A DNA stretch of 64,000 nucleotides. It comes from Balanoglossus misakiensis (lineage: Eukaryota; Animalia; Hemichordata). The notes beneath the pieces were generated by a model. The model was not told the origin of the DNA. It ran no database searches and was given only the letters and a program-made list of their open reading frames with translations. Shown here in pieces: positions 506 through 63,532 of the stretch (the stretch's first letter is position 1; each line of letters begins with the position of its first letter). The DNA is taken from contig CM082597.2 of the NCBI GenBank assembly GCA_040954595.2, forward strand, positions 3,991,924-4,055,923. Direction: 5' to 3'. The position numbers were made by a program, and so were the translations under genes.

Positions 506-2492
506 AATACACACACATGCATGCACATTTATAGTATGTGTACCGGTATGATTGATGTATGTGTGATGGATATACACTGTTTTATGTGAACAAATATATG
601 TATAATATATATACATAAAGGTGTGCATTATAGGCTGGAAGTCTCCTGTAGACTATATAGTGGAATACAATTGAGTAGCTGAACGAGAAACTATTCTGGC
701 ACTATATATAGCTGTATAGTCTAGATTTATGCGCATGTACATTTAATACGTTGTATCCTATATGTAGAACATATTGTTATATGATATTATCTATACAGAT
801 CTATATATACATTATATACATTAAATAGACATACAGCTTTAAGTAATAGCTAATGAGATTGATTGAATATACATAAGATTATATATTCATATAACAAATC
901 AAGATTTTATTATTTTTCTGACAATATGCCTGTTTCCTGCTACATGATTGTTACAAAGGTGCATTCAACAGGTTATCAAGTCTTTCAGTGTTTTGTCATT
1001 TATACAAAACAAAACCATATGTCCATGCATGTATTTACTATTCGTTATCTATGCGGAAAAGACACTCAATATCCAGTGTTTCCAATACAAGGGCAAGGTT
1101 CTGTGCACACACACAGCGTCCATGGTTTATATGTATGAAATATAGGCTTTCAAAATATCCACCAGCTCTTAGTACCTGGAACATAATACACAAATTTAGT
1201 ACAGTTTTATAATACATGTACAAACATGCATAGTTAATGCAAACAACACATTTCTTGGAATAGCTATTGTCGTACATGTTTTGAATACAAATGTGAATAT
1301 GTCAACATATTAACCTAGAGTTACACGTCGATAATAAAGAGAGCTTCATGTTTTATGCAGAAATGTGTGAGCGTTTTTATTTTATGTCCCTTATAGCCAG
1401 ATAAACATTTCGCTCGCTTCATCTGGACGTCTAGACGTTAACCATCTAAGCATGGATATATTGACGCTTTAGCAGGACAATTTTGTGATAATATAACTTA
1501 TAAGGTATCGTATAAAGCTTATGAGAAACTGAATTGGCATCCTTTGCACATTGTTTTCCAGTAACAAATGTTGAACAGAGAAATTGAAGCCAGTTCATGC
1601 TATTCTAGATGTCATCATTACAAAGTTCTATAATATGTAATTCCTATCGTGTTGTGTATATTGTTAATCATTCTCACAAAGTGCCCAGACAACTAAGTGG
1701 TATCTTCTGAACTGGGTGTGGCCGTGTTGTCATAATGAATGATTTATATGTCAACCATTAGAATGTGCATTAAGACAAATACATGCCGAAATAGCTTTGG
1801 AGGTTTCTGTTGTTTAGTGCACATTAATTTCAGCTCTTCTGAATTGGTTGTTATAATGATTTATATGTCAACCATTAGGATGTGCATTAAGACAAATACA
1901 TGCCGAAATAGCTTTGGGGTTTCTGTCATGTTTAGCACACGTTATTGTTGTGTTTACAGGACTAATGGATTTTCAATAATCATTCCACTTACCCTAAGTG
2001 CGCGAAGACAAAGGGAATTGTTTTGTTCATCTTTTATGATGGGGTTTCTGTCATGTTTAGCGCACGTTATTGTTGTGTTTACAGGACTAATGGATTATCA
2101 ATACTTCATTCTACTTGGCACTTACCCTAAGTGCGCGAAGACTAAGGGAATTGTTTTATTCATCTTTTATGAATGTTTTCATATTTTCAAAACCCAAATT
2201 GCCTCCGTCTAAATTAGGAAAGTTTATAGACAGACAATAGCATATAAGTGTGATTAAAAACCCGAAGTTTCTCAATTGCCATCCTATCTTCAACAAATTG
2301 ACATCAGACAACTGTAAGAGCCAAGCTGTGCGACGCTGTACCAGGTTTGTCAATAACTTTACAATTGACTTTGCTACGATCTTAGCTATACTGACGCCAA
2401 ATGATAGACTCTTGATAAGACAAGTTACCATGTCTGTAATCTCGAACGCTTCGACGTGTTTGCATATATTTAACTCTTTAATGAAGTAGGTG

Positions 2493-2498
2493 TATAAA
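2493..2498 (+). promoter_or_regulatory. Candidate TATA box of chitin-binding gene A (paralogous TATA at 7138-7143)
   Basis: TATAAA ~120 bp upstream of the ATG at 2613, kept in both copies. AATAAA signals lie at 4319 and 8239 downstream of the stops. Confidence 0.5.
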
Positions 2499-2612
2499 TG
2501 CGGGGATCTAAGGCAGAAAATGCGATTCCAAAGTCTAAGTTTCTCTCACATTTTGCTCATTCTCTGTGTTAACTCTATGGCGATTTTCAAGAAGACAACT
2601 TCAAAACCGAAA

Positions 2613-4162
2613 ATGAAGATTCACGTTGCAGTATTGGTTGTACTTTCTGTGGCAAGTTCATATTCTTATGAAGGTCAGTCTATTCATTGTAAATGGTTGT
2701 GCAGATCAAGTTGATTTAAGTAAGCTTTGAAAATCGTATCTCTTGATTGACAGGATATTTGTATTCACTACAGCTAGCACGCTTCGTCAGAAACCTCACC
2801 GCTAAAAATTCTGAGGAACGACTAATGGCGAAGACATCCTGATTTTACAGAGCTGCCATAGGGGTTTCCAAAAGTTTAGACAGACAAAAAATAAACAGTC
2901 TACGAGACCGAATAACAAAGAAGTTTCGACTTTCTTTTACTTTGTCTGAGAAGTTTTTTCACGACCACCTAAAGTTTACTTGTCAGTTTGTCTTTAAAAC
3001 TACAGTTCCAGTAACAATTGGAGGCGTTGCATTGACTCGTTCTTATTTCTGTATTCATTAGATGTGAATCTGGGGTGTTGGGCAGACACTCCAGATAGAG
3101 CTATACCGACAATAGAAAGGACTGACAGGTTGCTTGGTGATAACTACATGTTGAGATCCGATCCACTGGGAAAATGTAAAGCGGTCGCGCAGCATCGGGG
3201 TTTCGAAGTCTTTGCCTTACAGAATGGAGGGGAGTGTTTCTCAAGTGCAGACGCTGAAAGTACATATCAAAAGTATGGAGAATCTAGTGATTGTGGAACC
3301 GACGGTGAAGGTGGAGCCTGGGCTAGCCAGGTGTACAAAATAGGAGGTAATTAGATCGTCTTTCTCATATTAATATTTTATTAAAGGGACAAAGTATCTC
3401 TCTCGCTGCCTTTTTCCATGAATCATGTTTGCTATAAGACACTGTTTATGTTATTCTACATGTGGATAGATAGTGAATCAACGTTCGACCACACACAACT
3501 TCCATCTTTCTTGTAGAATATGAGAGTAAAAATCTCGCCAAAATGAATAAATGTTAGAGACCGATTATTCATTTTTGTGAGTTTTTCACTCCTGTATCTA
3601 CAAGTGGGATGGAAGTTGTGTGTGGTCGAACGTTGATTCACTATATATCTACATGTTTATTCACACAAATAGGGTGATTTGCATCAAACATAGTTAATGG
3701 AAAAAGGGCAGCGAGAGAGAGACTTTGTCCCTTTTGTATCTGTGTTGATAAGAACTGCCACAGGCATGTGTCTACCCATAGAGTAATTAAATATAGATTT
3801 AGTAAAGTTTTGATATTAATTTGTTGATATCAACATTATGACATGAACTTTCTGCCTGTCTCAGCACCCGTAGGCACAGGACTGTATAGTGCTAGGCCTT
3901 GTGCTGCGAACACACAAAGAATCGCCAAATATAGCGGCGAAGATTACTGGGTTGATTCTGGCAAAATAATTAAGGGTATACTTTTTTATTCACAGGGCCT
4001 AAGTGTACCGCAGATGGCTTGTTTCCACATCCGACCGACTGCACCAAGTTCCACAAATGTGTAAGCGGTGTTAGACACGATTCCCAATGCTTTTTTGGCC
4101 AGGTGTTTAACCCTGAGAATGGGTTTTGTGATTTCAAATCAAACGTGCCAGGTTGTAACTGA
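2613..4162 (+). CDS. Secreted WSC-like + chitin-binding type-2 (CBM14/peritrophin-A) protein, copy A
   Basis: Exons 2613-2673 (signal peptide MKIHVAVLVVLSVASSYSYE), 3062-3346 (LGCWADTPDRAI...FALQNGGECFSS...CGTDGEGGAWASQVY, WSC-like), 3996-4162 (CTADGLFPHPTDCTKFHKC...CFFGQVFNPENGFCDFKSNVPGCN*, six-Cys CBM14). All introns are phase-1 GT-AG. Confidence 0.85.
3381..3736. mobile_element. Palindromic MITE with AGGGACAAAG terminal inverted repeats (Kolobok-like)
   Basis: TTAA-AGGGACAAAG...CTTTGTCCCT ends and long internal inverted arms. Related copies at ~7487-7652 (right half), ~40997-41682 and ~43584-43805. Confidence 0.75.
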
Positions 4163-4544
4163 AAAGTGTTGAGATAATTGAACGCTCTGATTATGGTATT
4201 CTCATGCGCATTAATTTGCATTTTGGCACAACCAAGCATGTGTTTACTCATAGACCCTTTCTCTGGGGTCCATGGTCTACTGTAGTAAGCTTACTTGGGT
4301 GGGGGTGATGGATAATCCAATAAAACATGCATTAACTGAACAACATATGCTGTACGTGTTTCTGTTAACGTTGTCAATGTGGGATTTATTTTTCCAAGAT
4401 TAAAAGATGAAAATGGTATGATGTGCGCCCCATTTTCACATTGAAGCCAGAGCAATGCAGTACCCGTTGACCTTACAAGTCACGCTGCCTTAAATACATT
4501 TTTATTTCGTGCTAGGGGTCAAATCACATTATAATAATTGAATT

Positions 4545-5007
4545 CAATGGGCAAACACTGGCTGACCCATTAGCTGCCAATGGCATATGTACTGTACATA
4601 CACTAAATAGAACAGCTGGCTTCTTTAAAACTTAGCCAGTTATGTAATCATTCAGGAATTTGCTGTGTTTATATGAATCACAAAGGGGAGTTCCTGCCTA
4701 ATTAAAACAACTCAATAAAGTAAATACAAACCACTTTGCAAAGCAATCTGACCAGTAGTTCTTGAGTTACTGAGTTTTGACCAAATTCACATTTTTCCAG
4801 CTAATTTGCCAATTTTTGGCAATGACAACTTCATTTGAACAAACTCCCATCTACAGCCCAGCCTGCATCAGCACACTGAATATCAAGGTGATACACGCAG
4901 CGGTTTTCAAGTTTTTGATGTGGACGGACATACAGACATACATCCATCCATACATACAGGCGCAACCGATCCCATAAGGTCCAATGGTACATATCAATGG
5001 GACCCAA
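4545..5007 (+). mobile_element. Helentron/DINE-like non-autonomous element, copy 1
   Basis: ~460 bp repeated at 5595-6080. Contains a GACA/CATA microsatellite followed by a 3' hairpin (GGTCC...TGGGACC). Family assignment is inferred from structure only. Confidence 0.55.
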
Positions 5008-5091
5008 CAACAATCTAATATCGGACTGTCGACACAGAGATCTGATGGGACGATGAATGCCAAGATGAACTGTATAGCTCTCAAATCACAG

Positions 5092-5542
5092 CAAAAGAAG
5101 GCGATACAAAATTTTGGGGTGTGTTGCGCTGACCTGCGTTAACAGATCCCGTGAGGAGTACGGTGCCCAGAGCGCTAACACATCCCCAATACGAACTCAT
5201 GGACACAAACTATTTACATTTCTAGGTCCAAAACTTTGACTACAGTGAGACAAAACTGTTAGGCTTTTCTCATTTTTAAATCAAGTATTGAAATGCAAAA
5301 TAAAGTGTTAAAATGCAAAGAAGGCGATACAAAAGCTTGGGGTGTGTTGCGCTGACCTGCCTTAACAGATCCCGTGAGGAGTACGGTGCCCAGAGCGCTA
5401 ACACATCCCCAATACGAACTCATGGACACAAACTATTTACATTTCTAGGTCCAAAACTTTGACTACAGTGAGACAAAACTATTAGGCTTTTCTTATATTT
5501 AAATCAAGTATTGAAATGCAAAATAAAGTGTTAAAATGCAAA
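5092..5542. repeat. Tandem duplication, 2 x ~223 bp
   Basis: GAAGGCGATACAAAA...AAATGCAAA repeated at 5097 and 5320. Confidence 0.9.
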
Positions 5543-5594
5543 TTAAGACCGACGGGAGTGGTTCTTCTTTTCTCCAATGAAGTTCAACTTTGCT

Positions 5595-6080
5595 CAATGG
5601 GCAAACACTGACTGACCCATAAGCTGCCAATGGCATATGTACTGTACATACACTAAATAGAACAGTTGGCCTCTTTAAAACTTAGCCAGTTACGTAATCA
5701 TTCAGGAATTTGCTGTGTTTATATGAATCACAGAGGGGAGTTCCTGCCTAATTAAAACAACTCAATAAAGTAAATACACACCACTTTGCAAAGCAATCTG
5801 ACCAGTAATTCTTGAGTTACTGAGTTTTGACCAAATTCATATTTTCCAGCTAATTTGCACATTTTTAGCAATGACAACTTCATTTGAACAAACTCCCATC
5901 TACAGCCCAGCCTGCATCAGCACACCAAATATCAAGGTGATACACGCAGCGGTTTTCAAGTTTTTGATGTGGACGGACATACAGACAGACAAACATCCAT
6001 CCATCCATACATACATCCATACATACATACAGACGCAACCGATCCCATAAGGTCCCATGGTACATACCAATGGGACCCAA
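5595..6080 (+). mobile_element. Helentron/DINE-like non-autonomous element, copy 2
   Basis: Direct repeat of 4545-5007 with a longer microsatellite and the hairpin GGTCCCATGGTACATACCAATGGGACC. Confidence 0.55.
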
Positions 6081-6196
6081 AAACAATTTCAATGATTCCA
6101 ATATGGCCTCACAACATTGTTTTATATTGAGTTACAGGCAAGTTTAAATTTCTAACTTAAGGTTGGGAACTACCCATATGCAGTGCATGGTTATAT

Positions 6197-8383
6197 ATAA
6201 TATAACTTATAAGGTATCGTATAAAGCTTATAAGAAACGGAATTGGCATTCTTTGCACATTGTTTTCCAGTAAAAAATGTAGAACAGAGAAATTGAAGCC
6301 AGTTCATGCTATTCTAGATGTCATCATTACAAAGTTCTATATGTAATTCCTATCGTGTTGTGTATATTGTTAATCATTCTCACAAAGTGCCCAGACAACT
6401 AAGTGGTATTCTAAATAATTTGTTCTAATAATTTCGGCTCTTCTGAATTGGGTGTGGCCGAGTTGTCATAATGAATGATTTGAATGTCAACCATTAGAAT
6501 GTGCATTAAGACAAATGCCGAAATAGCTTTGGAGGTTTCTGTTGTTTGGTGCACATTAATTTCAGCTCTTCTGAATTGGTTGTCATAATGATTTATATGT
6601 CAACCATTAGAATGTGCATTAAAACAAATACATGCCGATTAGCTTAGGACGTTTCTGTTATGTTTAGCGCACGTTATTGTTGTGTTTACAGGGCTAATGG
6701 ATTTTCAATACTTCATTCCACTTACCCTAAGTGCGCGAAGACAAAGGGAATTGTTTTGTTCATCTTTTATGATGGGGTTTTTGTCATGTTTAGCGCACGT
6801 TATTGTTGTGTTTACAGGACTAATGGATTTTCAATAATCATTCCACTTACCCTAAGTGCGCGAAGACAAAGGGAATTGTTTTATTCATCTTTTATGAATG
6901 TTTTCATGTTTTCAAAACCCAAATTGCCTGTCTAAGTTAGGAAAGTTTATACACATGACAATAGCATATAAATGTGATTAAAAACCCGCAGTTTCTCAAT
7001 TGCCATCCTATCTTCAAAAAGTTGACATCAGACAACTGTAAGAGCCAAGCTGTGCGACGCTGTACCAGGTTTGTCAGAACTTTACAATTGACTTCGCTAC
7101 GATCTTAGCTATATTTAACTCTTTAATTAAGTTGGTGTATAAATGCGGGGATCTAAGGGAGAAAATGCGTTTCCAAAATCAAGTCTAAGTTTCTCTTACA
7201 TTTTGCTCATTCTCTGTGTTCACTCTATGGCGATTTTCAAGAAGACATCCGTTCAAAACCGAAAATGAAGATTCACGTTGCAGTATTGGTTGTACTTTCT
7301 GTGGCAAGTTCATATTCTTATGAAGGTCAGTCTATTCATTGTAAATGGTTGTGCAGATCAAGTTGATTTAAGTAAGCTTTGAAAATCGTATCTCTTGATT
7401 GGCACGCTTTGTCAGATCGAGGGTACCTTAATGAAACCTCACCGCTAAAAAATTCTGAGGAACGACTAATGGCGAAGACATCCACTGATTATTCATTTTG
7501 GTGGGGTTTTCACTCCCGTGTCTACAAGTGGGTTGGAAGTTGTGTGTGACTGAACGTTGATTCACTATATATCCACATGTACAGTAACATAAATGGTGTC
7601 TTGTATCAAACATAATTAATGGAAAAGGGCAGCGAGAAAGAGACTTTGTCCCTTTTGTATCTGTGTTGATAAGAACTGCCACAGGCATGTGTCTACCCAT
7701 AGATTAATTAAATATAGATTTAGTAAAGTTTTGATATTAATTTGTTGATATCAACATTATGACATGAACTTTCTGCCTGTCTCAGCACCCGTAGGCACAG
7801 GACTGTATAGTGCTAGGCCTTGTGCTGCGAACACACAAAGAATCGCCAAATATAGTGGCGAAGATTACTGGGTTGATTCTGGCAAAATAATTATACTTTT
7901 TTTATTCACAGAGCTTCAGTGTTCCTTACATGTAGATGGCTTCTTTCCACATGCGACCGACTGCACCAAGTACTACCAATGTCAAGGCGGTGTTAAATCC
8001 GAACAGGATTGCCTATGGGGCTTGGTGTTTAACCCTGAGACGGAGGCTTGTGATTTTCAACAATACGTGCCAGACTGTAACTGAAAAGTGTTGAGATTTG
8101 AACGCTCTGATTATGGTATTCTCATGCGCATTAATTTGCATTTTGGCACAACCAAGCATGTGTTTACCATTAGACCCTTTCTCTGGGGTCCATGGTCTAC
8201 TGTAGTAAGCTTACATGGGTGAGGGTGATGGATAATCAAATAAAACATGCATTAACTCAACTACATATGCTGTACGTGTTTCTGTTTTCAATGTGGGATT
8301 TGTTTTTCCAAGATTAAAAGATGAAAATGGTATGATGTGCACCCCATTTTCACATTGAAGCCAGAGCAATGCAGTACCCGTTG
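6197..8383. repeat. Tandem segmental duplication, copy B
   Basis: Matches 1488-4469 apart from a ~720-bp deletion (copy A ~2840-3563) and small indels. Confidence 0.95.
7265..8084 (+). CDS. Small secreted chitin-binding type-2 (CBM14) protein, copy B, lacking the WSC exon
   Basis: Exons 7265-7325 (signal exon identical to copy A) and 7912-8084 (LQCSLHVDGFFPHATDCTKYYQC...CLWGLVFNPETEACDFQQYVPDCN*). The phase-1 junction keeps the frame. Confidence 0.82.
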
Positions 8384-9351: not shown

Positions 9352-10194
9352 ATGGCCGTCAAGGCAACACCACAGGACATCCCAGCCTTGTTGACGACAG
9401 TAGAAAAATGGTTACCAGAGAGTTTACAGCTATACTACCACATCAAAAACAGTCACAAAACAGGCAACAGATGGCCTTGCCTCCAGATCTATGTGGATGA
9501 TCCAGATATGGCACTCGTAACAAGTGTGATGGTGGTTTGGCACCAAAATTTCACTCCTCCATATAGATGGTACACAATTTTCACATCAGATGTGAACAAA
9601 CTCGAAGTCTTAATCAGAAGTCCAGGTGTCATCAACATTTTAAGAGATGCCCGAATTCGAGTTATATGTGGGGGACCGGCATGTGGTGTTTTTGAAAATT
9701 TCCTTACCAGGGAAATGGTCGTGAAAGAATACGACATGTTACCATTTCACATCTACACATTTCATGATGTTGAACAGCTCGATAAGACATTAGACAGGCC
9801 AGTGCCGGCAGAATTCAGAATAGCTCCTCTAGAAACCAAACACGCTGAGTTGCTTTGTGATGCATGGGCGTATGGGTGCAGACAAGCAGATGAGACGTTT
9901 GAAAACACCATCAAATACCAAGAAAATCTAGCCATCTACAATGAAGCTGGAGAACCGGTGTCCTGGGTGGTCGTGAAAGAGTGGGGTGATATCGGCATGA
10001 CTTACACTGCACCGGAGTACAGACGGAGAGGATTTGCCAGTATTCTGACGGCAAAGATGACAAAATTAGTGTTAGAATCGAACGAGGTCCCTTTTGTGGA
10101 AATCTATTTGAGCACCAGTGGCAGTATGTCAGCTGCAATGCATCAAAAAACGGGATACCAATTCAGAACACCAATGAAAATATACTATTTGTAA
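9352..10194 (+). CDS. Glycine N-acyltransferase-like GNAT protein (single coding exon, 280 aa)
   Basis: N-terminal LPESLQLY motif and C-terminal GEPVSW...GDIGMTYTAPEYRRRGFAS acetyl-CoA-binding motif A, typical of GLYATL/FR47-like proteins. Confidence 0.88.
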   Translation: MAVKATPQDIPALLTTVEKWLPESLQLYYHIKNSHKTGNRWPCLQIYVDDPDMALVTSVMVVWHQNFTPPYRWYTIFTSDVNKLEVLIRSPGVINILRDARIRVICGGPACGVFENFLTREMVVKEYDMLPFHIYTFHDVEQLDKTLDRPVPAEFRIAPLETKHAELLCDAWAYGCRQADETFENTIKYQENLAIYNEAGEPVSWVVVKEWGDIGMTYTAPEYRRRGFASILTAKMTKLVLESNEVPFVEIYLSTSGSMSAAMHQKTGYQFRTPMKIYYL

Positions 10195-14900: not shown

Positions 14901-17900
14901 CGTACTGAACTGAACACTTGTGGGCACATGCACAAGTGTAATTCTACAGGGACAAGACAATATTGCAAGTCAGCTCTTTCAGGAATAAAACTGACTGTAA
15001 CTTCGGCTACACACTTATTTCAGTCGACGTTATGGAATGCTGCGGAACTAGCTATCCTTAGGATATAACTGGCCTGCATGCGTGCTAAGTCTAGTACTGC
15101 CTGGAAGACTGATGATACTGTCATGGCATTTGCCACACTGTGCTGCATCTTTGCTGTATGTTTCAGCATCAGTGTAGGGTATGCCTCGGAACAAACCAAT
15201 ATAATCATTGTCGGGAAGGGACAAGTCAGCAACTTGATAGTGGATGAGGTGTTTCCAATGCAGAGACTTGCAGAGAGCGAGAATGCTTTTACTGAGGAAC
15301 AGCCTACAAACCCTGACACAGAGAAACCATCAAGACAAGGTCAGTTCATTTCATTCTCTGTACACCTAACTTCATATCAATGAAAGTACATAATGCCATT
15401 ATAATTCAGAAACTGGGTTCTGCAAAATCTAGTTGATTTTTCGTCGAATGTGGAAGAAACTAGGACCACACAATTTGAACAGATGCAACCTTTTTGCACC
15501 ATATTCCTCTCACAAATTAATGATTTAGTCCATATTGCGAGGGTCAAACGTTACACTATTTATATACAAGAGCTGTTAAAATCTAGTGTACTTTTTCAAT
15601 TTTCACTTTTCAGTGAGAATACATTTCACTGTTATACATGTACTTCATATTCTCTATTAAGATGTGATAACTGTCTTAAATTGTCATTTATCTTTCTCTT
15701 TATTTCTTCAAAATGAAACTTTGGCAAATATATTTATAAAAATGCCTGCAAAAATAAATGACTGATCTTATGAATATCAATTAAATTAATTAATATAATT
15801 ACCATCCTACACTATAATATATTCCAGAGAGATTGTAGTTACTTATTCAATTAATTTTATTATTTTACAGAAAACATCGATTCTGTGTCCACAAGCAATC
15901 TTAGATTCACCGACAGTGTGTTTTCCAAAGACAAACTAAATTCTACTACACTATCCAAGTCTGAGAGGACAAGAAATGCAACTGGAACGTTCAAGTCAAC
16001 ACAGAAACTCAGTTCTACGGAAAAGATTACTTCTAGAAGGAGACATATTGAAACACCCACTCTGACTTCGTCATTCGGGGTGAAAAGTGAAGATCAACTC
16101 TTTACTGGTGAAAGACGAAATTTGACAGGCAAGCCTGATTCTCCTGTGCGATCAACATTTGCAAAGAAAAGTGGCATTGTAAAGATATCAAGTCACATAT
16201 TTAATATCAGTTCAGCTTTCAAATCACATAATAAAACCGACTCTGGAGGTAGATGGACAACAGATGGCAGTGACAACAGAGCACAGGTGACCTCATTTCA
16301 CGGAAATGAGGTCATGTCAACTGCACTTGAAGTATCGAATGACCTGGTGTTGGTTAAAGCTGGAACTGCCCCAGAGAGTTCTGCAGTTGGGCACCGGTTC
16401 GCGAAGACAAGAATTACCACCCCAGCAAGAAGAAACGCTCTGGTATCGTCTGTAGCTAGAACTCCCCACAGACAATCCACAGCCGGAAGTTCCCAGATGG
16501 AATCTGCAGCTGCAGCTCCAATGGCAAGGACTCCAGCTAGATCAAGGGCTCCCCAGGCAGGGTCTGCAGCGAACACCGGCGTTTCCGTCAAACATCTGCA
16601 CACAAAATCAAGGGCAGAAGAAACAAGGGAATTCACTTCAAAGTCAGCTGCTTCTCAGAAACTGCTAACTTCAATGCTGGGATTTACGAGAACCCAAAAC
16701 ATAACATCATCATCAACACCACAGAGAACTCTCTCAAAGGACCTGCTCACGAAATTGAGAACAGCCACTTCAAGATCAACAAAAACAAAATCAAAGCTTG
16801 TCACAGACTTCTTTGTAACCAAGGTAACAGAGGAAGATACTGAGGACGTGATAACCGCTCTTGTGATTTCAGAGTCTGATGATCAAGCGACTAATAATGA
16901 GTTAGAGGTGATAACCTCATCAACAAAACTACATCGTTACTTGAAAACATGGCATGCAAGACTCGTGACTGAACACCACAAGACAAATGCACTGCGGACG
17001 GGAAAAGGCAAGGTCGGGGAGGGAACATTGATTGAAATGGCCACCAGGGGGCGAAAGACTTCTGAAAGTTGGTACACTCATTGGCGATCCAGCACAGCAG
17101 CCAACAGAAGTGCTATGCGATCCCAGGAAACTGATGCTATCACTTGGCCTGTACAGAGCGATGGCTTAAAGACACAGGGTCACCTGACAACCAAAACATC
17201 ATCAGGTAAACAGCCATCAAGGCACCCAGTGCCAAGTTCACCAAACTTAGAAGTTTCTGGACATAACGCGAAGTGGACCAGTCACGAAATGAGAAGCAGT
17301 CGCCATAGAAACACAGTGATGACAAAGCGAAAGACCAGAAACGCTGAACAGGGGAAACGCACGACAAAAGAGCCATCGACTGTAACCATGACAATGGAGC
17401 AAGGTGATAAAAATGCCACTCAAGAAGATTTCAGCAGTTGGGGAGGCACTGCGAACCCAATGGCAACAACACAGACATGGCATACTGGAGTAACAGAAGA
17501 CTTGTACAACCAAACCACCACTGAATCCACAACTAGCGAGACAGACGTCTTGGTGACCAGTACACAGTCTGCATCATTCCCACATGATACAACCCAGGCG
17601 CAAATGACACCCAATCTGTACACAACACCAGTGATGACAGACTTCACTAAAATTGAGACCACCACCGTGTCAGCAACTAACTTTCCAACTTCTTGCTCAG
17701 TCAATCCATGCAAACACGGTGGAACATGTGTGGAGGCCAAGAATGGGCAGGTCAGATGTTCCTGCACTCAGATCTACATGGGAACGATATGCGACAAACT
17801 GAGACCCTTTCCGAAGGACGTGACGGCCCACTACAAGACCACAGACACCATCACAGTCAAGTGGCAATGGCCCCAGCAGAGGGGCGCAGGAATCAGCGGC

Positions 17901-20900
17901 TACATAGTGCAGTACAATACCTTCGGCGACGACAACATCAAACACAGCCTGCTGCTGCACCCGACGGTCAACGTGTTCACGGTGCGAGAGCTGCGACCAG
18001 CCACCCAGTACACGGTGTGCGTGTGCGTCACCACTGACGACCACATCCACACGCCGTGCGCGGTGCTGCGCGACCAGTGCCTGGAGGTGACCACTTTGCC
18101 CGAGAAGATGACGACGATCTCGATCAAAGTAGCTGCCTGCATTTTAGCAGCCACGGTGCTTTTCTTCCTACTAGTCATATGCGGAATCCAGCTTTCACAG
18201 TGGAAAAAGAACAGGAAGTACCGTGTCCCGTTTAAGACGATCCGTAGGTTCGTCCCCGACCAAATGACCCCCAACACCGACTCCCCACCCATGCAGCAAC
18301 GGCCGAAACAGGTCAATGTCACCGAGAACATCCCAATGTCAAGGATATCAGGACCAAAGGACGAGCAGCAAGATCGCTGCAGCAATTCTGTGTCGAGCAG
18401 TTTATACGACGAGAAGCGACCACCTAGCTCTGACGAGACTATTCCCAAACACAGTGCAACACCGCGACATTCTGATGCAGGGAATGAGTTTGATTTTGAA
18501 AATGTCTACTTTCTGCCGAAAAATCTCTCATAAATAATTATAACTACTTAAATCCTTCCCACGTGAACTAGAGGTGATTGTAGTTCTTTTAATAGTCCTG
18601 CTTAACTTTCAGTGACTTTTTGACTAATTTAATTTTAAAGCGATTTTATTGTCAAGCTGAAACCAGAAAAACTTTAATTCCGGTTTCAAGTGTTCATTTT
18701 ATTACCATAGCCAGTTGATATTGAAACTAACATAAATTTTTTCATTGTCCAGAGATAGATACAGAATATTGAAAAAAAAATAGTCAGAGATTACAGATTA
18801 TCGTTCCTTAACTGGGTGTACTTACCACACCGAGGACAGCTAGGAATATCACTAAGGCAAAGCATGCATAGGCAATGTAAGCATTGGCATTGATGTCTGG
18901 ATGCCTGGTTTGATACAGCTTCAAGATACCAAGGCCAGCTATTATGTACATGAATGATGTATCTAGAAAGTCAAATGGTAGAGACACATTTGCTGTATCA
19001 GAATTTGTGCATTTTGACGATATGTTATAATTTGACATTGATTTATTACTGTACAATTACAATTAGAAACCACAACTTCAAATCGGATTTGATGAATGTA
19101 TGTATGTATGTATGTATGTATGTATGTATGTATGTATGTATGTATGTATGTATGTATGTATCTATGAATGTCCACTGTATGTATCATTAGAGTCTCAGTC
19201 ATTTGCAATGTATCTACTGGGTCACAAGCAACTAAATCAAAACTGTCTCCTGGATACAAGGAATTCAGGATATACAAACAAATATCGACGTTCAATGGCT
19301 ATAGCAAAGAACAGTGCCGTGTGTGACATCATCTTACCAAACTGGAAATTGGAATATGTCGGACACACATGGTAACAGCCACTGAGAACTCCTTCCATGA
19401 CCAGAGCAATGCCAAGGGCGTAGAATAAACCAAAATGTTTGGGGATTCCATAATTCTGCAAAAAATTTAATATACAATTGCAAGAATGAATTAAGTTAAC
19501 ATGATTAAATTGCAAATTGCCGCGAGCGAATTCTATCACAGTGTTGCCGCGCGGCAAAACAACACAATATTATCTGATATTGTAAACCAATGTGCGGAGG
19601 AAATTGACAAACAAACATTTGACCGTACCTTTTCCATCTCATCATTACTCTCCACCAAATTCTTGTGGATGAGGTCTTCTCTCCAAGTCACAAACAAAAA
19701 TAATATACCCAATAAAATGTATCCCATGTTACTGAAGATGTTGTTGAAAGCACTGTAGGGAGAAAATGATGAAAAGATATCAAGTTTGCAAAGTGACGAG
19801 CAAAATGTAAATCATGTGATGCAACAGCCTGGTGGAAAGTCACATGACAGAGAATGAAAGCTGTGATTGGTGGCTACTCCACCTATAAAAACTCATGGAA
19901 AGTCACATGACAGAAAATGAAAGCTGTGATTGGTGGATACTCCACCTACCTGATGACTCCAAGTGGATTGGCACACAGGAAGTTGTAGTAACAGATATCT
20001 TCATTGCCAGTTTTGTTGAAAATCTGACAAATAAAAATACAGATACTGTTATAGAAAACAGGAAAATATCACCAGTGTATTTCTCAAGTTGAATCTCTAT
20101 AGCTGACTGATTGAAAGATGTACATGTAACTATATGGCGATGATCCCATTTACTTACTGTCTGGTAGGTGATGACAAGTTGTATGACTGGCAATGCATAG
20201 AACACAGCAATGGGAAGTAGATTCCAGTGGTAAAGCTTGTATTTCTTTCTCAGAGTCTTCCGATCTTTCCGGGATAGATCACTCACATATAGGAAGGTCT
20301 GGGGAAACGGAATGACAGAAAGTATTAATCGAACTGTACTTTGCCAGTTACTGATAATGTCAGATCTATGTGTCCAGCGATGTAGGTATGTTTTGGAACA
20401 GGGGCCAATAGGAACTAGTAACAGCCGATAATGGCAGAAAAGATTTGCTCATTAACGTGCCTGCTTCTATGGGGTTTAGAAACATTCTAGGCAGTCACAT
20501 GCTAAGTTCAGACGGGCATTTTAACAGACCAGCTATTATCTAAATCACTGTGTGTGTATCACCAGTGTGTTCATTTTACCTTCGTTCTGTAGACATCCTT
20601 CTCTTGTTCAATGTCATGAAGCATGTCAATATCGCTATCATCCAGCGAGATGTTATCAATAGAGCTGTCGCTCGACAGACGACGTCTTCGAGTGAGGCTG
20701 GGCTGCTCATCGTGCTGGACACTTGGCTGACCATTGGGTGGGAAAGTAGTCTGACCTGAGGGATAACAACCACATAAGATTGTTCATGTATACAGCAACT
20801 CAGCAGATCAATAGTTGCAGAACACATGATGTAATGAAATCAGTCACAGTGTATATGCAAAGTGACTGTGATTATGTTTTGAAAAAAGTAATAACTAGGT

Positions 20901-23900
20901 ACAGTCGAACCTAGCTAAGACAAACAGCAAGGGACTGTGAAAACATGTTTGTTGAACCCAGAGTCATTATATAAGTAACTTTGATGGCTTCTAACGGTAA
21001 CTTCTTTTTCACTTGTAACGCATTTACAGTAATGTTATTAAAGCTAGAAATACTAGTAAAGAGAGTGAGACTCTCCCAGTTTGAAAAGATTCACATGCAT
21101 TGCGGCAAGTACTCTGATAAAGTCACATTTATATTTTCATCATTTCCGAATTGTTTTATTGTATTTTGCAGAAAGTGTTGGCAATGCTCAGGTTAGACAG
21201 TTAGAATGCATCTAGTCAGCTTCTCAAGAACCAAAACTCCCAAGTATAATTGTTACATTTTGTTTTTGTAAGTAATAACCTGAACCAGTATATGTATGTC
21301 TTATGTACATTCTATTTTGCATAATGATTACAAGTAAGGACCTGATTGTCAGTCGACTGTTTGAACTGGAACTTAAAAAATAATTTTTTCAATAGATCAA
21401 TAATAAATAATTAGCACAAGAAGAGATATAATCAAAATAAAATTATGTCCAATGAATGTGACATGTACTGAGCATATGTGCATATGTTAAATATATGTAT
21501 ACATACAAAAACACATACACATAATTCTGTATTTTTTGTACAATGTATTCATGTATATTCACATATATGATAATTTCTGTCAAACCATGTGATGAAGTAA
21601 AATGGTCTAGGAATGGCAGCATGCCGGCAATGTTTAAAATGGAAGCTTGGTTCTAGACTGCAGGTGGCTGAAGGAATCATTCACTGCCCAACACAAAACA
21701 CTGAATGCATTCATGCAAAAGGATGGGGAGATCTAAGCTGCAGAGCTGTGTGTTTTTCTCGCTCTCAGTTTTGCATTTTTAGGAAGAGCAAATTTGTCTT
21801 GCATCAGTGGGTAACCCACAAATGCAGTCAAGTGGAAAAAAGTCCTTATAATGTAACATTTCATAGCTGGGAATATCTACAATACTTGAGAGCTGATGTG
21901 CGGTGTGTGGATTAGGGAGGGATAATCCATGGATCATAAAGACAACTTAGGAAAGGGTTAGTCGGCCATGACAGTTGCACAGCATTGTGGGAAAGTTCAT
22001 GAGAGCTGCACAGCATTGTGGGAGTGTCCATCAGAGTTGCAGAGCATGGTGAAAATTTCCAAGGTGTTTTTTTGGAAGAGAGAGACTCACTACTTGGTAG
22101 CTCACAGGCGTGTCTCATCTCACCCGTGCCATAGCTTGGTTGCTTAGATGCCCCTATCGGTGCCGAGGGGTCTTCAGTGCTATCGCCAGCTGAGGAAAAA
22201 ATAAAATAAACACTTATCATACACAGCACATGGCAGACCTATTGCACCAAATGTGTTTCTGAGTCTCAAACAGGGGTTAGACAAGCCTCAACCAGGCCTC
22301 TTGCCTGTGACCTGCTAGTCCTGCCCGGACTCTCCTGGGTCTGCCAGTGCCACATGGAAACACACAGTCTGCTTTGGTGTGTGATAGTTATCACTGTCAC
22401 AAAATTTACATAATGTCAGTGTCCATAGGCAGTTTCCTTTAGGTGTTATAAACTGTTGTTGTTTATATGTTCCCAATGTGACATTCTGAGGCTACTCTCA
22501 CTTCACCGAGGCATTAAGTCTGAGGCAAGTTTCAGATGGTGCAAAGTTCTGGTACATACTGTCCCCAGAATCATACAGTTTCCAAATGTATATCTTCTCT
22601 TTTCACTACTAAGGAGAGGTATAAAAATCCTTTGGACTAAAAAATTACAATGAATGCCTTGAAATGGTGAAAAAGATGTGATTAAATCAAACAAAGAAAA
22701 CACAGATAGTCACAAAGGTTGAATGTACTTCCAATATCGCAAAAATGAATGTACTTTCAATATCATACCTAGAAGTGGTTCTGTGACGTAAACATGCCAG
22801 CATACAAGAGTTAATAATCAGCAAACAAACCGATCAGATAAAAAAGTAGACAATAAAATAATTAGTGGCAAATATGAGCATTACAGGCACACAAATTCAA
22901 GGCCGTCGAACATAAAATTGTGATCTGAACACAACAGAAATTATACAGGCAATAATAACAGATCACGTTCTGTAATACTGCGGAACATTCAAAGAGCGTA
23001 CACAGAAAACAAGTCTATCTACATTGCAGCATTGTGAATCAAATAATTGTATATAACTAATGAAAACATGTTAGTCATTGAACAGCATATAGGGACAACA
23101 CACAGCATGATGTACATGTACTAGCATGGTTTACAAGTTTCTAACATGAAAAAGTAATGTTTCCCTTTGACGTATATTGACCAATCTAATATGTTGGCAT
23201 GGAATTTATCCAAATATTATTAAGTCAGATAACATTACACCAAGTAGTAAATAACTACATGTAAGCGTGTTGAATGATGAAATTTAATTGCCCATGAAAT
23301 AAATCCAGTGAATATATGGAAAATAAAGTAAAATTATAATAAAGCATCAAACAAAATCTTACTTGCGTAGAAGCCAGAAGTTGCAATTCATCTAATGAAA
23401 TGAAAACTTTTAACTCTTACACCCTTTACTTATTAGTACCCTTAATTATGAGCCCAGCCTTGCCAGTGCAACCCACAGGTTTATACTTAAAATTCAAAGC
23501 TAAAGGATTAAGCTGGGTTATATTATGTTAGCATAAGTATATGGTGTATAGCGACATACAAGTGTTGATGAAATGAGGACACTGCAACAGAAGTGCATTT
23601 ATGTGACTATCCCAGTAGCTGATTTCCACCCTTTCACCACCATAAATTGGACTACTCCATTGTTGTCAATGGCAGTCATGGACCTCTGTACTTGGAAATG
23701 GGGGTGAAAGGGTTAAATCTTGCCATGCACACCGCTATTAGAATTTCACATTCAGCTTTACAAAATTCACCCAGAATAGGGGTGAAAGGGTTAAAGAAAT
23801 GCAAAAGACAACTCCCTGTGAGTCAACATTACCAGTTTCTCTTTGGCTGCTCTCGACGTCTTCAGACGTGTCTCTCTTCCTGTCAAGATGCACCAAAGGT

Positions 23901-26900
23901 GGGAGAAAAAACGAGAAATCAAGATAAAAAGCTTGGCACATCTCTAGTACATTCACAGCATAGTGTTGGCACAAGGGGTTAGAATGCAAGACACCGTGTG
24001 ATTATGGGACCTTAGAAATACTAACATTTGCACCAGGAATATACCAGCACAGTATGAAAAAAGGGCCAGGTAAATGCTGGCATTGGATGAAAAAGTGCCA
24101 GCAGAATGCCGGCACATATGCTAGGTTGTATCATATCTGTACTGTATGTGCACTATGTCATACGTGCATATATGTATAGTTAATGTATACAAAGAAATTC
24201 GGAGTCCATTATCAGTCATGATGATTGAAGTCATTTGAATTAATGTCAAACGATCTACACTTTGTCACTGTAACACATTGCACGTAGAGGTTTTACGCGT
24301 CACATTGATATAACACACAAGCAACAAATCTATGACTTGTGATAAATTGCACACAGTTGACGACCTACCTATACCACTGTATGAAGAACACCGCAAAAGA
24401 GAAGAGATAAAAAGACATGAAGAATGCAACGACACCCATCACAGCTTTCCAGTATTGGTTCCCTGCAGAGCAACAAGAAAGGTGATTTGCATACAAAGGA
24501 CAGTACATCTGGTGTATGCATGATAGCACAGAATAGTTTTATAGGATATATCTAAAGTTTTACAGTATTTGAAGTCAGGCATCTGTAGTGTTATTGTCAA
24601 TTTACTAGAGGACCAAATTTTGTTGTACATATAGATTTAACTTTTTGACAAATATTACTTACTTGATATAGTGGGTACAATGCTAATAGTTATATTTTTA
24701 ATCCTACCAATACCTGGTAGAGGATTCAATGCAACTGTAAATGGGAAAAAAATATAATAATCTTTGTTAGAGATAGCCCATCACACCTTATAAGTAGATG
24801 AAAGACATATATGCCAATACATGTATACATGGAAACTTAAAGTCCAATCTTTCACATTGCTTTGGATATTTTTGTGATATAAATTCATTTGTCTATATGC
24901 TGTTGTGCGAAAATGTACTTTTGGAATGTTGGTGATTAGCTGCATGTGATTGGACAATTGAGTTCATGTGACTACCCTTGAAGTTGATTTGATTGGACGA
25001 ATCAGACATTACCATGGCGATGATTCATATTTAGTGAGTTCTCAGTGGGTAAAGCAGGTTGCAGTTTGGTCAGGCCGTTGCAGTCAGCATCATCTGGGTG
25101 GACGACGACCACTATGAAAAATTCTTTCTTCTGAAAATCATTACCCTACAGAAAGAACAGAAAGTGTATTTTAAAATGGCATTTCAAGTTTTTGGTCAAA
25201 AAGATTAATTGAAAGGTTGTCCCAAACTTTCTTAATGTTGTATAAAGCAGAATACTGAATGGACATTAGATTTTTGTGTACAGTATATATTCATTCATAT
25301 TAATCAGCTTCTTGTCATATTTTCTACATCATCCACAAGCCATTTTACTTTTGCAAATAGACAAAAGTCTAGATTCAACCCTTTCATCACCATAGTTTGG
25401 CCAAAATCCATTGTTTTCTATGGTATAGTTGGACCTCTACACAGGGAACCAGGTTGAAAGGATAACATTAATTTCAATTTTCAACAAATATCACCCATCC
25501 AAATTCCCTCCCTCCCCTTCTCCCCCCCCCCCTCTCAACTTACCTGTACTGTAATGGATGACTGCGATGTCTGTGTCTGGTAGATGCCAGTGAATTCTAC
25601 ATTACGATTCAAATCAAAAACTGGACACTGAAAAAAAATGAAAAAAATGATCAGCTTGCCACATATAACGATGACATACTATAAACACTTTATTTTCGCG
25701 AGTTGAAATTTTTGCGATATCGAGAGAGGCCACTGTTTTGCGAGTATTAATTTTCGCATTCTCATTCGCTTCATCGTTATCTTCAAAAACAATTTACGCG
25801 ACTTTTTATTTTCATGCTATTTTCGCTCTCGCGTATTTGGCGAAAATTTATTGCTCGCGAAATTTTACAGTATGTGTCAAACAGTCATGTACAAGCAACT
25901 GGTTCTCGAAGGATAAAGCATTGACTTACAGTGGTTTCTTGAACTGAAATAGTAGCACAGATGTCATCATCCGAATATCCTCGGACTTGAACAGCATCAG
26001 TATCGCTGGGGAATTTGAAATAGTAGTACTGTGGAGTAAAGACAAGAAACGACCTTAATTAAAGTAGAAAGTGCCTCTGGGACAAAAATGATACTCAATT
26101 CTTTTAAATATTTAAGATCACCAATGGGTGTGGCTGCTGATTTTTTTGTATAAATGGAACTATAATATGCTTACCTTCGGTCTTGATGGTGATACTGTTA
26201 TTTTTTGAGGTTTTGACATACTGAAAATATAAATAATTATAATGATTATACTGTCTCCCAGTGATATCTACATCAAGTAATGTAATTTCTGAAGCATGAA
26301 ATACGTGTAATTTGTCATCATGGATATTATTATTGCAAATCATATGAAATATTAATATATATAACAGCCCTGTCTTAATTAGTGCGATTAACTATTAATG
26401 TACGTAAGGTTATCAAAACGGTCATGTTAACTTTCTGGGTATATAACACACCTTTAGATAAACACTAAATTGCATACAACTTTGATATGCATATATTGGC
26501 AGGGTCTCACTGAATATTGAAAACAATGCTGATGGTTTGTTATTTCTAAACAGAAAAGTGGAACGTGCGCATTTCGGTGAAAGGGTTAGAACAAGTAAAC
26601 TTTGACTTACAAGATGTCAAAATCATCAACGATGGTCACGTTGAGAGTATAGAAAGTAACATTTGCTGAGGAACATGAAACGTCAATGACCACTTCATTG
26701 ATGGTGGTATTGCCGAAATCCATCGGACACAGTGTCCTAGCAACCGCATCGTACTCATATCTGGAACATAAAGAGTAAATGGTAATATGAGATTATAACT
26801 AAGGTACTAGATGCAATGTGCTGAACTGTCTTCACCCTTTCACTACCATGGTTCAGTCCAAACCCATAGTTTTCAATGGTAAGGTTGGACCTGTATAGAG

Positions 26901-29104: not shown

Positions 29105-30096
29105 CTTCGACGCTAAGTTTCATCGTAGGCTACCTAAAGTCTTCAGGAACACTGGATCAGTTCGCGTCTTCCCTGGCCTGCAGCTGGACGTCCAGAGCTT
29201 CCGCAAAAACAAAGGCCCTCCAGCTTACCTAAGAATATTGCTAGACTTTATGTACATTACATGAAATGTATCACACACCTAATTATTCATATAAAAATAT
29301 AAAAAAGGGGGGGGGGGGGGCATTCATCAAAGTCATTTGCCATCGTATATATGTATTTACCAAAAGAGAGAGATTCGACCTAGTTCTGCCTAGATCAATC
29401 AGAATGTTCTGTTCCATTTGGAGAAACATCAAAGAGTGGGAGCTCAGCTTCAAAATGTGAACTTCTTTCATTAATTAGAAAAAAATACGTCATACTGTTA
29501 AGCTGTATGTCCAAAGAGACACTTAAAAGTTTAGAAGCGGACAACTGAATATTTTAAGCCTTAATTTTATTTATTTCTCTTTGTCTGTGGTTTTATAAAG
29601 CAACAGGTACATACAATTTAAGATACCAAAATGTAATCTGAGTGCATTTTATATTGAAGATATGATCCCTCTTAGACAAGAAAGGTTTATTTCATACATT
29701 ACATAGTATTATGTAAGCATGCGTGTAACGTGTGGACGTCAATGCATTGTCGGGAGTGGTTACCATGGTAACCCTTCATTAGTTCTTCACCAGGGGAAGC
29801 TCATGACCCACCCGGCGGCATGGCAACAAAAAGCTCCCTCAAATTGGTTGCTCCATGTCTGTAACTTATGAAAAACATAGACGCCAAATTTGTCTGTGTC
29901 AGGAAATAAGTTAATTTTGGACGTAAAGATTATGTATGCAGGATATATGAGGTGGTATCCCGTCATATTTCTTCCAATGCTACTAAGTGGTTCTTGCTCC
30001 CACACTCCATGCGACCGCCCCCGTGCTGAATGGTTTAGCCGAAGGTGTAAACAAAAAGTATAACCGCGAACTTGGGGAGTCGGAATATTGGGAAAC

Positions 30097-59476: not shown

Positions 59477-59670
59477 TCCATCGTGCTGACAGACTGGATT
59501 CCTCCCTAAAATGCACAAAACGCGCTATTTGTGGTGACTTAACATTCATAGCCTAACTCAGTTCTTGGAATGATATTAATTTTTAACTGGCAATATGATA
59601 TTGTCTAACTGTTTACCATATATAATTTTTAACTGGCAATATAATATTGTCTAACTGTTTACCATATATA

Positions 59671-62542: not shown

Positions 62543-63532
62543 TTCAGTGGTTTCCAATTATTTACGTGTTTTCTCGCAGTTCATTTATGCCATATTTTAC
62601 AGCGGCATGAACGTGCCTATTTGTAAATATAAACGGAGATACCGTCCCTCCACGTTTACTCTGCCTTCCCTCTCGGCGAGAATGGTAAAATCAATTTGTT
62701 ATGCAAATAACGTCGGATGACCGCGTTGAGGTCAAAGTGCATACTTTATGTATCGTGGGAAGGTTGGAATCTCCATGAAGGATTTGATGTGCGTATATGT
62801 TGCGGTTTCTCGTGAACGTTTCGTTAGTAAGTTTATATTTAGACTTTTTTGGTGAATATGTATTCTTCTGCATAAATTGAGACTCCACCCAGAAAATTGT
62901 GGACTTTGTATAATGTAAATAACAACATAGCAACGTCGGCGTGGCCGTGAGCTCGACGTTGGTATGGTATGTTTCAACAGGCATTTCTTTTCAGCGAGGG
63001 TTTTTTTGGGGACATATGGTAGGAAAGGGTTTCATGTTCAGGTGATCAATCGCTTGACAGGAAATATGTATAATAACAGTGAGACTGTAGCAGCGATGTA
63101 TATGGTTGACGCTGTGAGGGCGTGGAATTTTAGAAGCCCCTGGTCCACATACCTGTGCGGACATTATCGAAGCCAGGTCAAAGGTCATATCTGCTGTCAT
63201 ATGGTGATGTCCTTGGGGCGCACCGCACATCCATCACGAAATTACAATTATTGTGACGAAGGAAGTGTGATTTGGGCTAACCACAGGATATATGGTGGAC
63301 AGGCGCTTTGAGTTGCTTGACGGAGAGTTTGAATATTTGGGGCCCATTTCATGATGATATGTATCACACTGTTATGTTACTTTCAAAATAGTGACTGTGC
63401 AAATTGTCATCTCCTGGTTTGTCACACTCACAGTCCCGCGAAAAATATAGAAAAGGGTTTCCTTTGACACAGATTCTGCTGTTTATACTAACGATAGTTA
63501 AAGATAATGAACATTTTTGCGGAATCTGATTT

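What the first reader, a model, noticed from the sequence alone, without database searches (positions are those of the whole stretch)
3996..8084. Duplicated chitin-binding exon diverged almost only by amino-acid changes inside near-identical DNA
Seen by hand alignment of 3996-4162 with 7912-8084: 27 of 55 aligned residues differ, plus a 2-aa indel. All six Cys are kept, and only one of the 28 conserved codons has a synonymous change (TTC/TTT). The 61-nt signal exon is identical, and the adjacent intron and 3' UTR are nearly identical. Inference: intense diversifying selection focused on the ligand-binding domain, as in immune recognition or effector peptides. This suggests a rapidly diversifying family of secreted glycan sensors. 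Amphioxus VCBPs are the known precedent for chitin-binding domains in variable immune proteins, but those carry Ig V domains, which these lack.
Basis: partly seen in the sequence, partly recalled or inferred. Interest (0 to 1): 0.85.

Follow-up and report, generated by a model that had tools for sequence, protein, structure and literature searches.

The report
Rapidly diverging twin chitin-binding lectins
Two neighbouring, spliced gene copies in what is likely an acorn worm encode predicted secreted sugar-binding proteins, one with a WSC plus a chitin-binding-type domain and one that has lost the WSC part, and their shared domain differs at half its residues with few silent changes, which likely reflects positive selection on a defence lectin.

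Summary
The counts hold: 27 of 55 residues differ, with a 2-aa indel, six Cys kept, one silent change in 28 unchanged codons and an identical signal exon.

Copy A is signal+WSC+CBM14 (170 aa); copy B lost that exon by a 720-nt deletion (77 aa). Contigs of one run show both spliced.

Selection support is moderate. About 5 of 40 differences are silent. Codon-model dN/dS is about 3 (p 0.03-0.11), and 4-6 at family-variable positions (p 0.002-0.01). Flank differences are clustered (p 0.0004), so conversion probably hides part of the pair's age. No near-identical donor exon shows in the sample's contigs.

Changes are not enriched at the mapped chitin site (5 of 12). All 9 charge changes make B more acidic. 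A likely second allele of A varies in the WSC exon (5 replacement, 1 silent).

It likely works like a VCBP with WSC in place of Ig-V, but is not a VCBP. Ligand and immune role are untested. The scan noted a similar pattern in ankyrin exons of this genome, not this gene.

The parts
1488..4469 (+). Duplication unit A (upstream region, gene A, 3' region)
   Evidence: Self-BLAST to 6197-8383 in three blocks at 89-91% identity; alignment
2613..2673 (+). Gene A coding exon 1: ATG plus 20-residue hydrophobic leader, predicted signal peptide (judged by eye), phase-1 GT donor
   Evidence: identical to 7265-7325. Its splice to the WSC exon was not among the joints shown
3062..3346 (+).
   Evidence: PF01822 27.8 bits, equal to the cut-off; 56-64% identical to Ptychodera, Saccoglossus and Branchiostoma proteins; spliced to the CBM14 exon in run X3
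3383..3734 (.). Palindromic high-copy MITE-like element in intron 2 of A; only its right half survives in B
   Evidence: Self-BLAST inverted match and further copies at 41052-41683 and 43579-43806; very high contig depth
3996..4162 (+). Gene A last coding exon: CBM14/peritrophin-A domain, pI about 7.0
   Evidence: PF01607 50.2 bits, cut-off 22.1; spliced contig 3994-4207 with 0 differences; pI
4319..4324 (+). AATAAA, candidate polyadenylation signal of A
   Evidence: Sequence; use not shown
4470..6196 (.). Repeat-rich spacer between the two units
   Evidence: Internal repeats 4544-5014/5594-6087 and a 223-nt tandem; high depth
6197..8383 (+). Duplication unit B
7069..7244 (+). 5' UTR intron of gene B (GT..AG, 176 nt)
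   Evidence: Joint 7066>7243 'cut +2' in run X3; sequence
7265..7325 (+). Gene B signal-peptide coding exon
   Evidence: spliced to 7912 in run X3
7483..7484 (+). Deletion joint in B: A 2840-3559 (WSC exon and left arm of the MITE) is missing
   Evidence: Alignment; breakpoints
7912..8084 (+). Gene B last coding exon: CBM14 domain, two residues longer, pI about 4.2
   Evidence: PF01607 58.5 bits; spliced contig 7910-8104 with 0 differences; pI
8239..8244 (+). AATAAA, candidate polyadenylation signal of B
   Evidence: Sequence; use not shown

Best explanation
This is a tandem pair of spliced genes, one encoding a leader, a WSC domain and a CBM14 domain and the other only leader and CBM14, whose CBM14 exon was likely driven apart by positive selection on a predicted secreted defence lectin. 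Shown: the exon layouts, splicing of both, 35 replacement versus about 5 silent differences, kept Cys and core. Inferred order: an ancestral signal+WSC+CBM14 gene was duplicated; copy B lost the WSC exon by a deletion ending in the middle of a palindromic element; patchy gene conversion kept parts of the flanks alike while the CBM14 exons diverged, probably on both branches, leaving B an acidic stand-alone domain. Inferred function: A would work as a two-handed lectin, with CBM14 holding chitin (own mucus matrix, or a fungus or copepod surface) and WSC reading a second glycan such as beta-glucan, as VCBPs pair a tether with a recognition module. B would be a free CBM14 with changed surface. 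The fast change would come from a moving biological partner.
For: Layout and deletion. Spliced GT..AG joints for both genes in run X3. dN 0.36, dS 0.115, dN/dS 3.1, p 0.038-0.054; 2.4-4.2, p 0.034-0.11 over three gap placements with and without double-nucleotide mutations; parametric bootstrap P 0.029-0.037 in 1230 simulations. Family-variable columns dN/dS 4.4-5.6, p 0.002-0.010; conserved columns 0.4-1.0. Neutral drift keeps all six Cys in only 1.7% of 6000 simulations. Replacement divergence (35 of 130) exceeds even the most diverged flank, the MITE half (21 of 172), p 0.001. Each copy carries rare residues at columns where the other has the family consensus (A: His21, Gln37; B: Ala14, Tyr51). 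A second haplotype differs from A's WSC exon by 5 replacement and 1 silent change. More distant CBM14 paralogues exist. VCBP precedent: PMC4757023 abstract, PMC2632668 passages. Fungal WSC proteins described as glucan-binding: PMC9252488 passages.
Against: Only one pair of 55 codons with about 35 silent sites; NG86 is not significant (p 0.09-0.17) and one gap placement gives p 0.10 by likelihood. The models are my own scripts, not codeml. Silent divergence in the exon exceeds that of non-coding DNA (5 of 35 versus 89 of 1881, p 0.026) and flank differences are clustered (p 0.0004), so the flanks are not a clean clock. No enrichment at residues matching the human chitotriosidase binding site (5 of 12). 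The second haplotype's CBM14 exon encodes the same protein as A, which is not what a hypervariable binding domain would show. The best PDB sequence match, EHEP, does not bind chitin. The WSC score only equals the Pfam cut-off. No tissue, induction or binding data.
Confidence: 0.6

Rival explanations
1. One-off change of job rather than an arms race: after B lost the WSC domain, directional selection remodelled its CBM14 surface into an acidic stand-alone protein, and A stayed put.
For: All 9 charge-changing substitutions lower the charge from A to B (sign test p 0.004; 7 of 7 without His, p 0.016); pI 7.0 versus 4.2; simulation from A gives P 0.002 for this shift. The second A haplotype has the same CBM14 protein as A. 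The other paralogues' fragment lacks B's two extra residues (read from loose ends).
Against: If the ancestor was B-like the charge shift is not significant (P 0.16). A carries non-consensus residues where B has the consensus, which suggests change on A's branch too. No full outgroup exon was available.
Confidence: 0.2
2. Older duplicate with relaxed constraint: gene conversion keeps the flanks alike, the exon escaped conversion and drifted, and the apparent dN/dS above 1 is small-sample noise.
For: Clustered flank differences, longest identical run 248 aligned sites (p 0.002); the MITE half differs by 12%, like the exon's silent rate. Whole-exon tests are borderline.
Against: The test against the exon's own silent sites still gives about 3; P of at least 27 residue changes with at most 1 silent-only codon under neutrality is 0.023, and of keeping six Cys 0.017. 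Changes avoid conserved columns (p 0.001; 0.02 without Cys). Both copies are spliced and intact.
Confidence: 0.12
3. A and B exons are two old balanced alleles of one locus that unequal crossing-over placed in tandem; recombination had already eroded the differences in the flanks.
For: Narrow peak of divergence with raised silent divergence. Contig depths in run X1 suggest two A-type copies and one B (51-68 versus 28, shared 74-96), and the third copy mixes A-type and B-type states 3' of the exon.
Against: Depth is a weak guide to copy number and comes from one sample. It still needs selection on the exon, so it changes the history rather than the cause.
Confidence: 0.1
4. One exon was donated by gene conversion from an older paralogue elsewhere in the genome.
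For: Other CBM14 paralogues exist in the genome (3 contigs in each DNA run). B's longer first loop matches Glandiceps domains without a gap.
Against: Silent sites are far from saturated: 0 of 11 comparable fourfold sites differ, 1 of 28 unchanged codons. Contigs run unbroken across each exon and both flanks (X1 7864-8104 with 0 differences; X2 3718-4294), which a second locus sharing long words should have broken. The other paralogues match A over only 39 nt with 6 differences. Reads were laid at high resolution on exon A only.
Confidence: 0.05
5. The function is not defence (a separate question from the four above): the proteins are mucus-matrix, digestive or phenolic-binding proteins, like EHEP, squid beak protein or peritrophins.
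For: Best PDB sequence matches are EHEP (E 1e-12) and a chitin-binding beak protein (E 2e-11). EHEP and Der p 23 do not bind chitin (passages). Acorn-worm tissue and mucus hold phenolic compounds (PMC12050227, start of abstract in listing). B is acidic, unlike typical antimicrobial peptides (recalled).
Against: Replacement excess in both domains and likely copy-number variation are more typical of conflict-driven genes (established knowledge). The aromatic residue matching Trp465 is kept as Phe in both copies.
Confidence: 0.3

Closest known systems
VCBPs of amphioxus and Ciona (PMC2632668 passages, PMC4757023 abstract)
   Same: Leader, N-terminal module and C-terminal chitin-binding domain; tandem copies; haplotype and copy-number variation (hinted here); conversion discussed for the cluster.
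   Different: No Ig V domain. The N-terminal module is a single WSC exon, and B has none. In VCBP2/5 the hyper-polymorphic part is the first V exon; here the paralogues differ in CBM14 and the alleles in WSC. Gut expression not tested.
Tachycitin and mytichitin-CB type single-CBM14 antimicrobial peptides (recalled; search listing only)
   Same: B is a leader plus one CBM14 domain of about 57 residues.
   Different: B is strongly acidic (pI 4.2); those peptides are recalled as cationic. No activity data.
EHEP of Aplysia kurodai (PDB 8in3; bioRxiv 10.1101/2023.06.04.543649 passages)
   Same: Best PDB sequence match to the CBM14 exons.
   Different: EHEP has three domains and binds tannin, not chitin; here one domain per protein.
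Human chitotriosidase CBM14 (PDB 5hbf, 6so0; PMC5459812 passages)
   Same: Matched over residues 420-465; Trp465 position is Phe in both copies; Gly453 and Val455 kept.
   Different: No catalytic domain; Pro451 is Phe or Leu; Leu454 is Gln in A.
Marine-invertebrate WSC-like repeat proteins (Ptychodera flava, Saccoglossus, Branchiostoma, Ciona, corals; uncharacterised)
   Same: WSC exon is 56-64% identical; 994 relatives in the near-length search.
   Different: 0 of the 126 fetched WSC relatives carried a CBM14 domain; only 120 of the 994 were listed.
Conotoxins, snake-venom PLA2 and defensins (recalled, no call)
   Same: Pattern of conserved leader and introns, fixed Cys and accelerated mature exon after duplication.
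   Different: Unrelated sequences; no sign that these proteins are toxins.

Membership tests
CBM14 / peritrophin-A (PF01607) | Six-Cys domain scoring above the Pfam cut-off | tested here: met
   50.2 and 58.5 bits versus 22.1, full-length match
CBM14 / peritrophin-A (PF01607) | Residues matching the chitotriosidase chitin site (Pro451, Leu454, Trp465) | tested here: inconclusive
   Phe for Trp465 in both; Pro451 lost in both; Leu454 only in B. Mapping from equal-length ranges 3-48 and 420-465
CBM14 / peritrophin-A (PF01607) | Binds chitin | not testable with these tools
   Some members do not
WSC (PF01822) | Pfam score at or above the cut-off | tested here: met
   27.8 bits, exactly the cut-off, E 3e-6; ESM Atlas neighbours score 0.95-0.96 with PF01822 on 12-21% of members
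WSC (PF01822) | Binds beta-glucan as described for fungal WSC proteins | not testable with these tools
   Fungal precedent only; no PDB match by sequence; this domain has four Cys
VCBP | Two tandem Ig V domains | tested here: not met
   The only middle exon is WSC
VCBP | Leader and C-terminal chitin-binding domain | tested here: met
   leader judged by eye, no predictor run
VCBP | High haplotype polymorphism and copy-number variation | tested here: inconclusive
   One sample: WSC 5 replacement + 1 silent; depth hints at 2 A-type and 1 B copy
VCBP | Gut expression, binding to mucus chitin and bacteria | not testable with these tools
   No tissue record for run X3
Tachycitin/mytichitin-type antimicrobial peptide | Secreted single CBM14 domain | tested here: met
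   Gene B, 77 aa
Tachycitin/mytichitin-type antimicrobial peptide | Net positive charge (feature recalled) | tested here: not met
   B charge about -7.5 at pH 7.5, A about -0.6
EHEP | Three peritrophin-A domains in one chain | tested here: not met
   One domain per gene; tblastn finds no third copy in the window

The most novel reading that the evidence does not exclude
Acorn worms have their own VCBP analogue: a family of secreted WSC-CBM14 two-handed lectins with a glycan-reading WSC module in place of Ig-V, diversified by allelic change in WSC, positive selection in CBM14, exon loss and copy-number variation, and aimed at chitin- or glucan-bearing fungi or copepod parasites. This would be a second, independent origin of variable recognition modules tethered to chitin in deuterostomes.
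Probability: 0.3. Interest if true: 0.75.

Novelty: new variant of a known kind. Interest (0 to 1): 0.5.

Why it matters
Hemichordate defence proteins are little described, and the animal WSC-like domain has no named ligand in anything found here. This locus gives a small testable set: two expressed proteins of 170 and 77 residues, a natural domain deletion, a surface switched from neutral to acidic, and an allelic WSC variant. Binding tests would show what the animal WSC domain binds and whether a CBM14 domain can be the target of selection rather than a fixed tether. The evolutionary pattern itself (kept leader and Cys, fast mature exon) is familiar, which limits the surprise.

Tried and rejected
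No whole genome is held for this window, so paralogues could be seen only as contig fragments. tblastn and a Cys-pattern scan found no third copy in the window. A homologue search with B's domain among proteins of 30-98 aa found no candidate. The profile search of cluster representatives gave 3346 hits; the 150 listed are multi-repeat proteins, with best single domains about 40-57% identical, too distant to serve as outgroup. No protein with both WSC and CBM14 among 278 fetched (126 WSC, 152 CBM14); this is weak evidence because 120 of 994 and 150 of 3346 hits were listed. No RNA holder was listed; X3 is taken as RNA only from its GT..AG joints. The single-sequence AlphaFold model of B had mean pLDDT 52.9 and was not used; no fold search or complex prediction was run. 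No PDB match for the WSC exon. A two-class site model gave p 0.004-0.006 but its low class sat at the boundary and the script stopped part-way, so I rely on the fixed partition. Paper searches: WSC domain + chitin-binding + hemichordate, 0 papers; WSC domain + chitin-binding domain + amphioxus, 0; CBM14 + positive selection + duplication + antimicrobial peptide, 3 papers, the 2 listed unrelated by title; one search was uninformative because two terms collapsed into one. Whether acorn worms make chitin was not settled. Supplements were not read. Rejected: pseudogene (both intact and spliced); two haplotypes assembled side by side as an artefact (not excluded by long reads, but a third A-type copy appears in the sample); enrichment at the mapped chitin site (5 of 12).
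Full report
Observation. Exons 3996-4162 and 7912-8084 give 27 differences in 55 aligned residues, a 2-residue indel, six kept Cys and one silent change among 28 unchanged codons; the 61-nt signal exons are identical. Both exons match PF01607 well above the cut-off. The exon differs at 40 of 167 aligned sites; non-coding DNA of the duplication differs at 68 of 1709 without the MITE half and 89 of 1881 with it (a 41-nt badly aligned patch was left out).

Unit A (1488-4469) has a 285-nt phase 1-1 exon at 3062-3346 that encodes a WSC-type domain (PF01822, 27.8 bits, equal to the cut-off). Unit B (6197-8383) lacks A 2840-3559. The deletion ends in the middle of a palindromic high-copy element that is whole in A and halved in B, so B is the derived form (inference). 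A encodes 170 residues, B 77. Run X3 has GT..AG joints 3346>3996, 7325>7912 and 7068>7245, so both genes are spliced. The signal-to-WSC joint was not among the rows shown (159 rows were hidden). The three runs are one sample and may be the one the window came from, so they are not independent.

Organism. The WSC exon's 6 longer relatives are from Ptychodera flava (3), Saccoglossus, Branchiostoma belcheri and one unnamed source, at 56-64%. The best-scoring CBM14 domains are from Glandiceps talaboti. An acorn worm is likely; earlier notes on this genome say the same, unchecked.

Is it selection? NG86 counts about 35 replacement and 5 silent differences (range 4-6) on 130 and 35 sites: dN/dS 1.7-2.1, p 0.09-0.17. 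My codon-likelihood script gives dN 0.36, dS 0.115, dN/dS 3.1, p 0.038-0.054; over three gap placements, with and without double-nucleotide mutations, 2.4-4.2 and p 0.034-0.11. A bootstrap of 1230 neutral simulations gives P 0.029-0.037. Splitting 52 codons by column entropy in 970 distinct fetched CBM14 domains gives dN/dS 4.4-5.6 at variable columns (p 0.002-0.010, three thresholds) and 0.4-1.0 at conserved ones. Neutral drift keeps all six Cys in 1.7% of simulations. So the fold is kept while the variable positions change faster than silent sites. The support is moderate: one pair, few silent sites, no codeml.

The flanks are not a clean clock. Their differences are clustered (permutation p 0.0004; longest identical run 248 sites, p 0.002), the MITE half differs by 12%, and exon silent sites differ more than non-coding DNA (p 0.026). 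Patchy gene conversion is the likely cause, though alignment patches in tandem repeats can add clustering. The contrast 'half the residues changed inside near-identical DNA' therefore overstates the speed. Replacement divergence still exceeds the MITE half (p 0.001).

Donor exon. Silent sites are far from saturated (0 of 11 comparable fourfold sites). Contigs run unbroken over each exon and its flanks. The other CBM14 loci seen, 3 contigs in each of the two DNA runs and one deep X3 contig, match A only at 4012-4050 (6 differences in the X3 contig). No near-identical donor is visible in this sample. The X3 contig's upstream letters read as an exon ending KKLG, like the end of A's WSC exon, which hints, from about 13 letters only, that these paralogues are also WSC-CBM14.

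Second haplotype. Contigs carry six differences in A's WSC exon, five replacement and one silent (Ile>Met, Arg>Lys, Leu>Trp, Ser>Ile by two bases), against one in about 315 nt of adjoining intron (p 0.057). The CBM14 exon of that copy differs from A only by one silent base at 4153, where it has B's letter. X1 depths are 51-68 on A-only contigs, 28 on B's exon and 74-96 on shared ones, which suggests two A-type copies and one B, that is, B on one haplotype only. Depth is a weak guide, and contigs drop variants.

Where the changes fall. Mapped on the 12 chitotriosidase residues tested by alanine scanning (PMC5459812, passages), 5 differ, no more than the domain average. Two of three high-impact positions differ (Phe/Leu at 451, Gln/Leu at 454) and the key aromatic is Phe in both. 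In Avr4 the binding site spans the whole domain (PMC6128652, abstract), so this mapping may be too narrow. All 9 charge-changing substitutions make B more acidic (p 0.004; pI 7.0 to 4.2); this is significant if the ancestor was A-like (P 0.002) and not if B-like (P 0.16). Each copy has rare residues where the other has the consensus, so both branches probably changed.

Mechanism. Shown: layout, splicing, replacement excess, kept core. Inferred: duplication, WSC loss in B, conversion of flanks, positive selection. Least supported: function. By analogy with VCBPs, which bind host chitin and co-localise with bacteria in gut mucus (PMC4757023, abstract) and vary in copy number and haplotype (PMC2632668, passages), A would be a two-handed lectin and B a free, resurfaced CBM14. 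Fungal WSC proteins are described as glucan-binding (PMC9252488, passages). Chitin-bearing antagonists of acorn worms are on record: an endoparasitic copepod (PMC9990918, abstract) and fungi (PMC12050227, listing). Against: the best PDB match, EHEP, binds tannin and not chitin.

Novelty and score. It is not a VCBP (no Ig V). The WSC+CBM14 layout was not seen in 278 fetched proteins or in two direct paper searches; both are limited samples. The evolutionary pattern is well known from other secreted Cys-rich proteins (recalled). Verdict: a real feature, new variant of a known kind, interest 0.5; the bolder reading (an independent VCBP analogue in hemichordates) has probability 0.3 and interest 0.75.

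Noticed in passing
window 9352-10194 (+): Intronless 280-aa ORF of a GNAT acetyltransferase with glycine N-acyltransferase-like N and C regions (Pfam), right behind unit B.
   Followed up: partly
window 15069-18533 (+): Predicted membrane protein: leader exon, then an 892-codon ORF with a long Ser/Thr-rich region, an EGF-like and a fibronectin-III-like stretch and a hydrophobic segment (read by eye).
   Followed up: no
window about 19237-27312 (-): Exon fragments that look like a SID-1/SIDT transmembrane gene (resemblance recalled).
   Followed up: no
window 30064-32558 (+): Nuclear receptor gene: C4 zinc-finger exon and a ligand-binding-domain fragment (read by eye).
   Followed up: no
window 40543-46405 (+): Multi-Ig-domain gene resembling Kirrel/NEPH (resemblance recalled).
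   Followed up: no
window 59670-62544: Large inverted arrangement of arrays with a unit of about 147 nt (85-92% identity) around a palindromic centre at about 60441-61037.
   Followed up: no
window 3383-3734, 7484-7655, 41052-41683, 43579-43806: A palindromic MITE-like family with very high contig depth; one copy marks the deletion end in gene B.
   Followed up: partly
window 4012-4050 (contigs of X1-X3): At least three more distant CBM14 loci in the genome; one X3 contig has depth 5757 against 540-710 for A and B contigs (depth cannot rank expression).
   Followed up: partly
window 1726-2172 and 6429-6897: Short tandem repeats of about 117-126 nt upstream of both genes.
   Followed up: no
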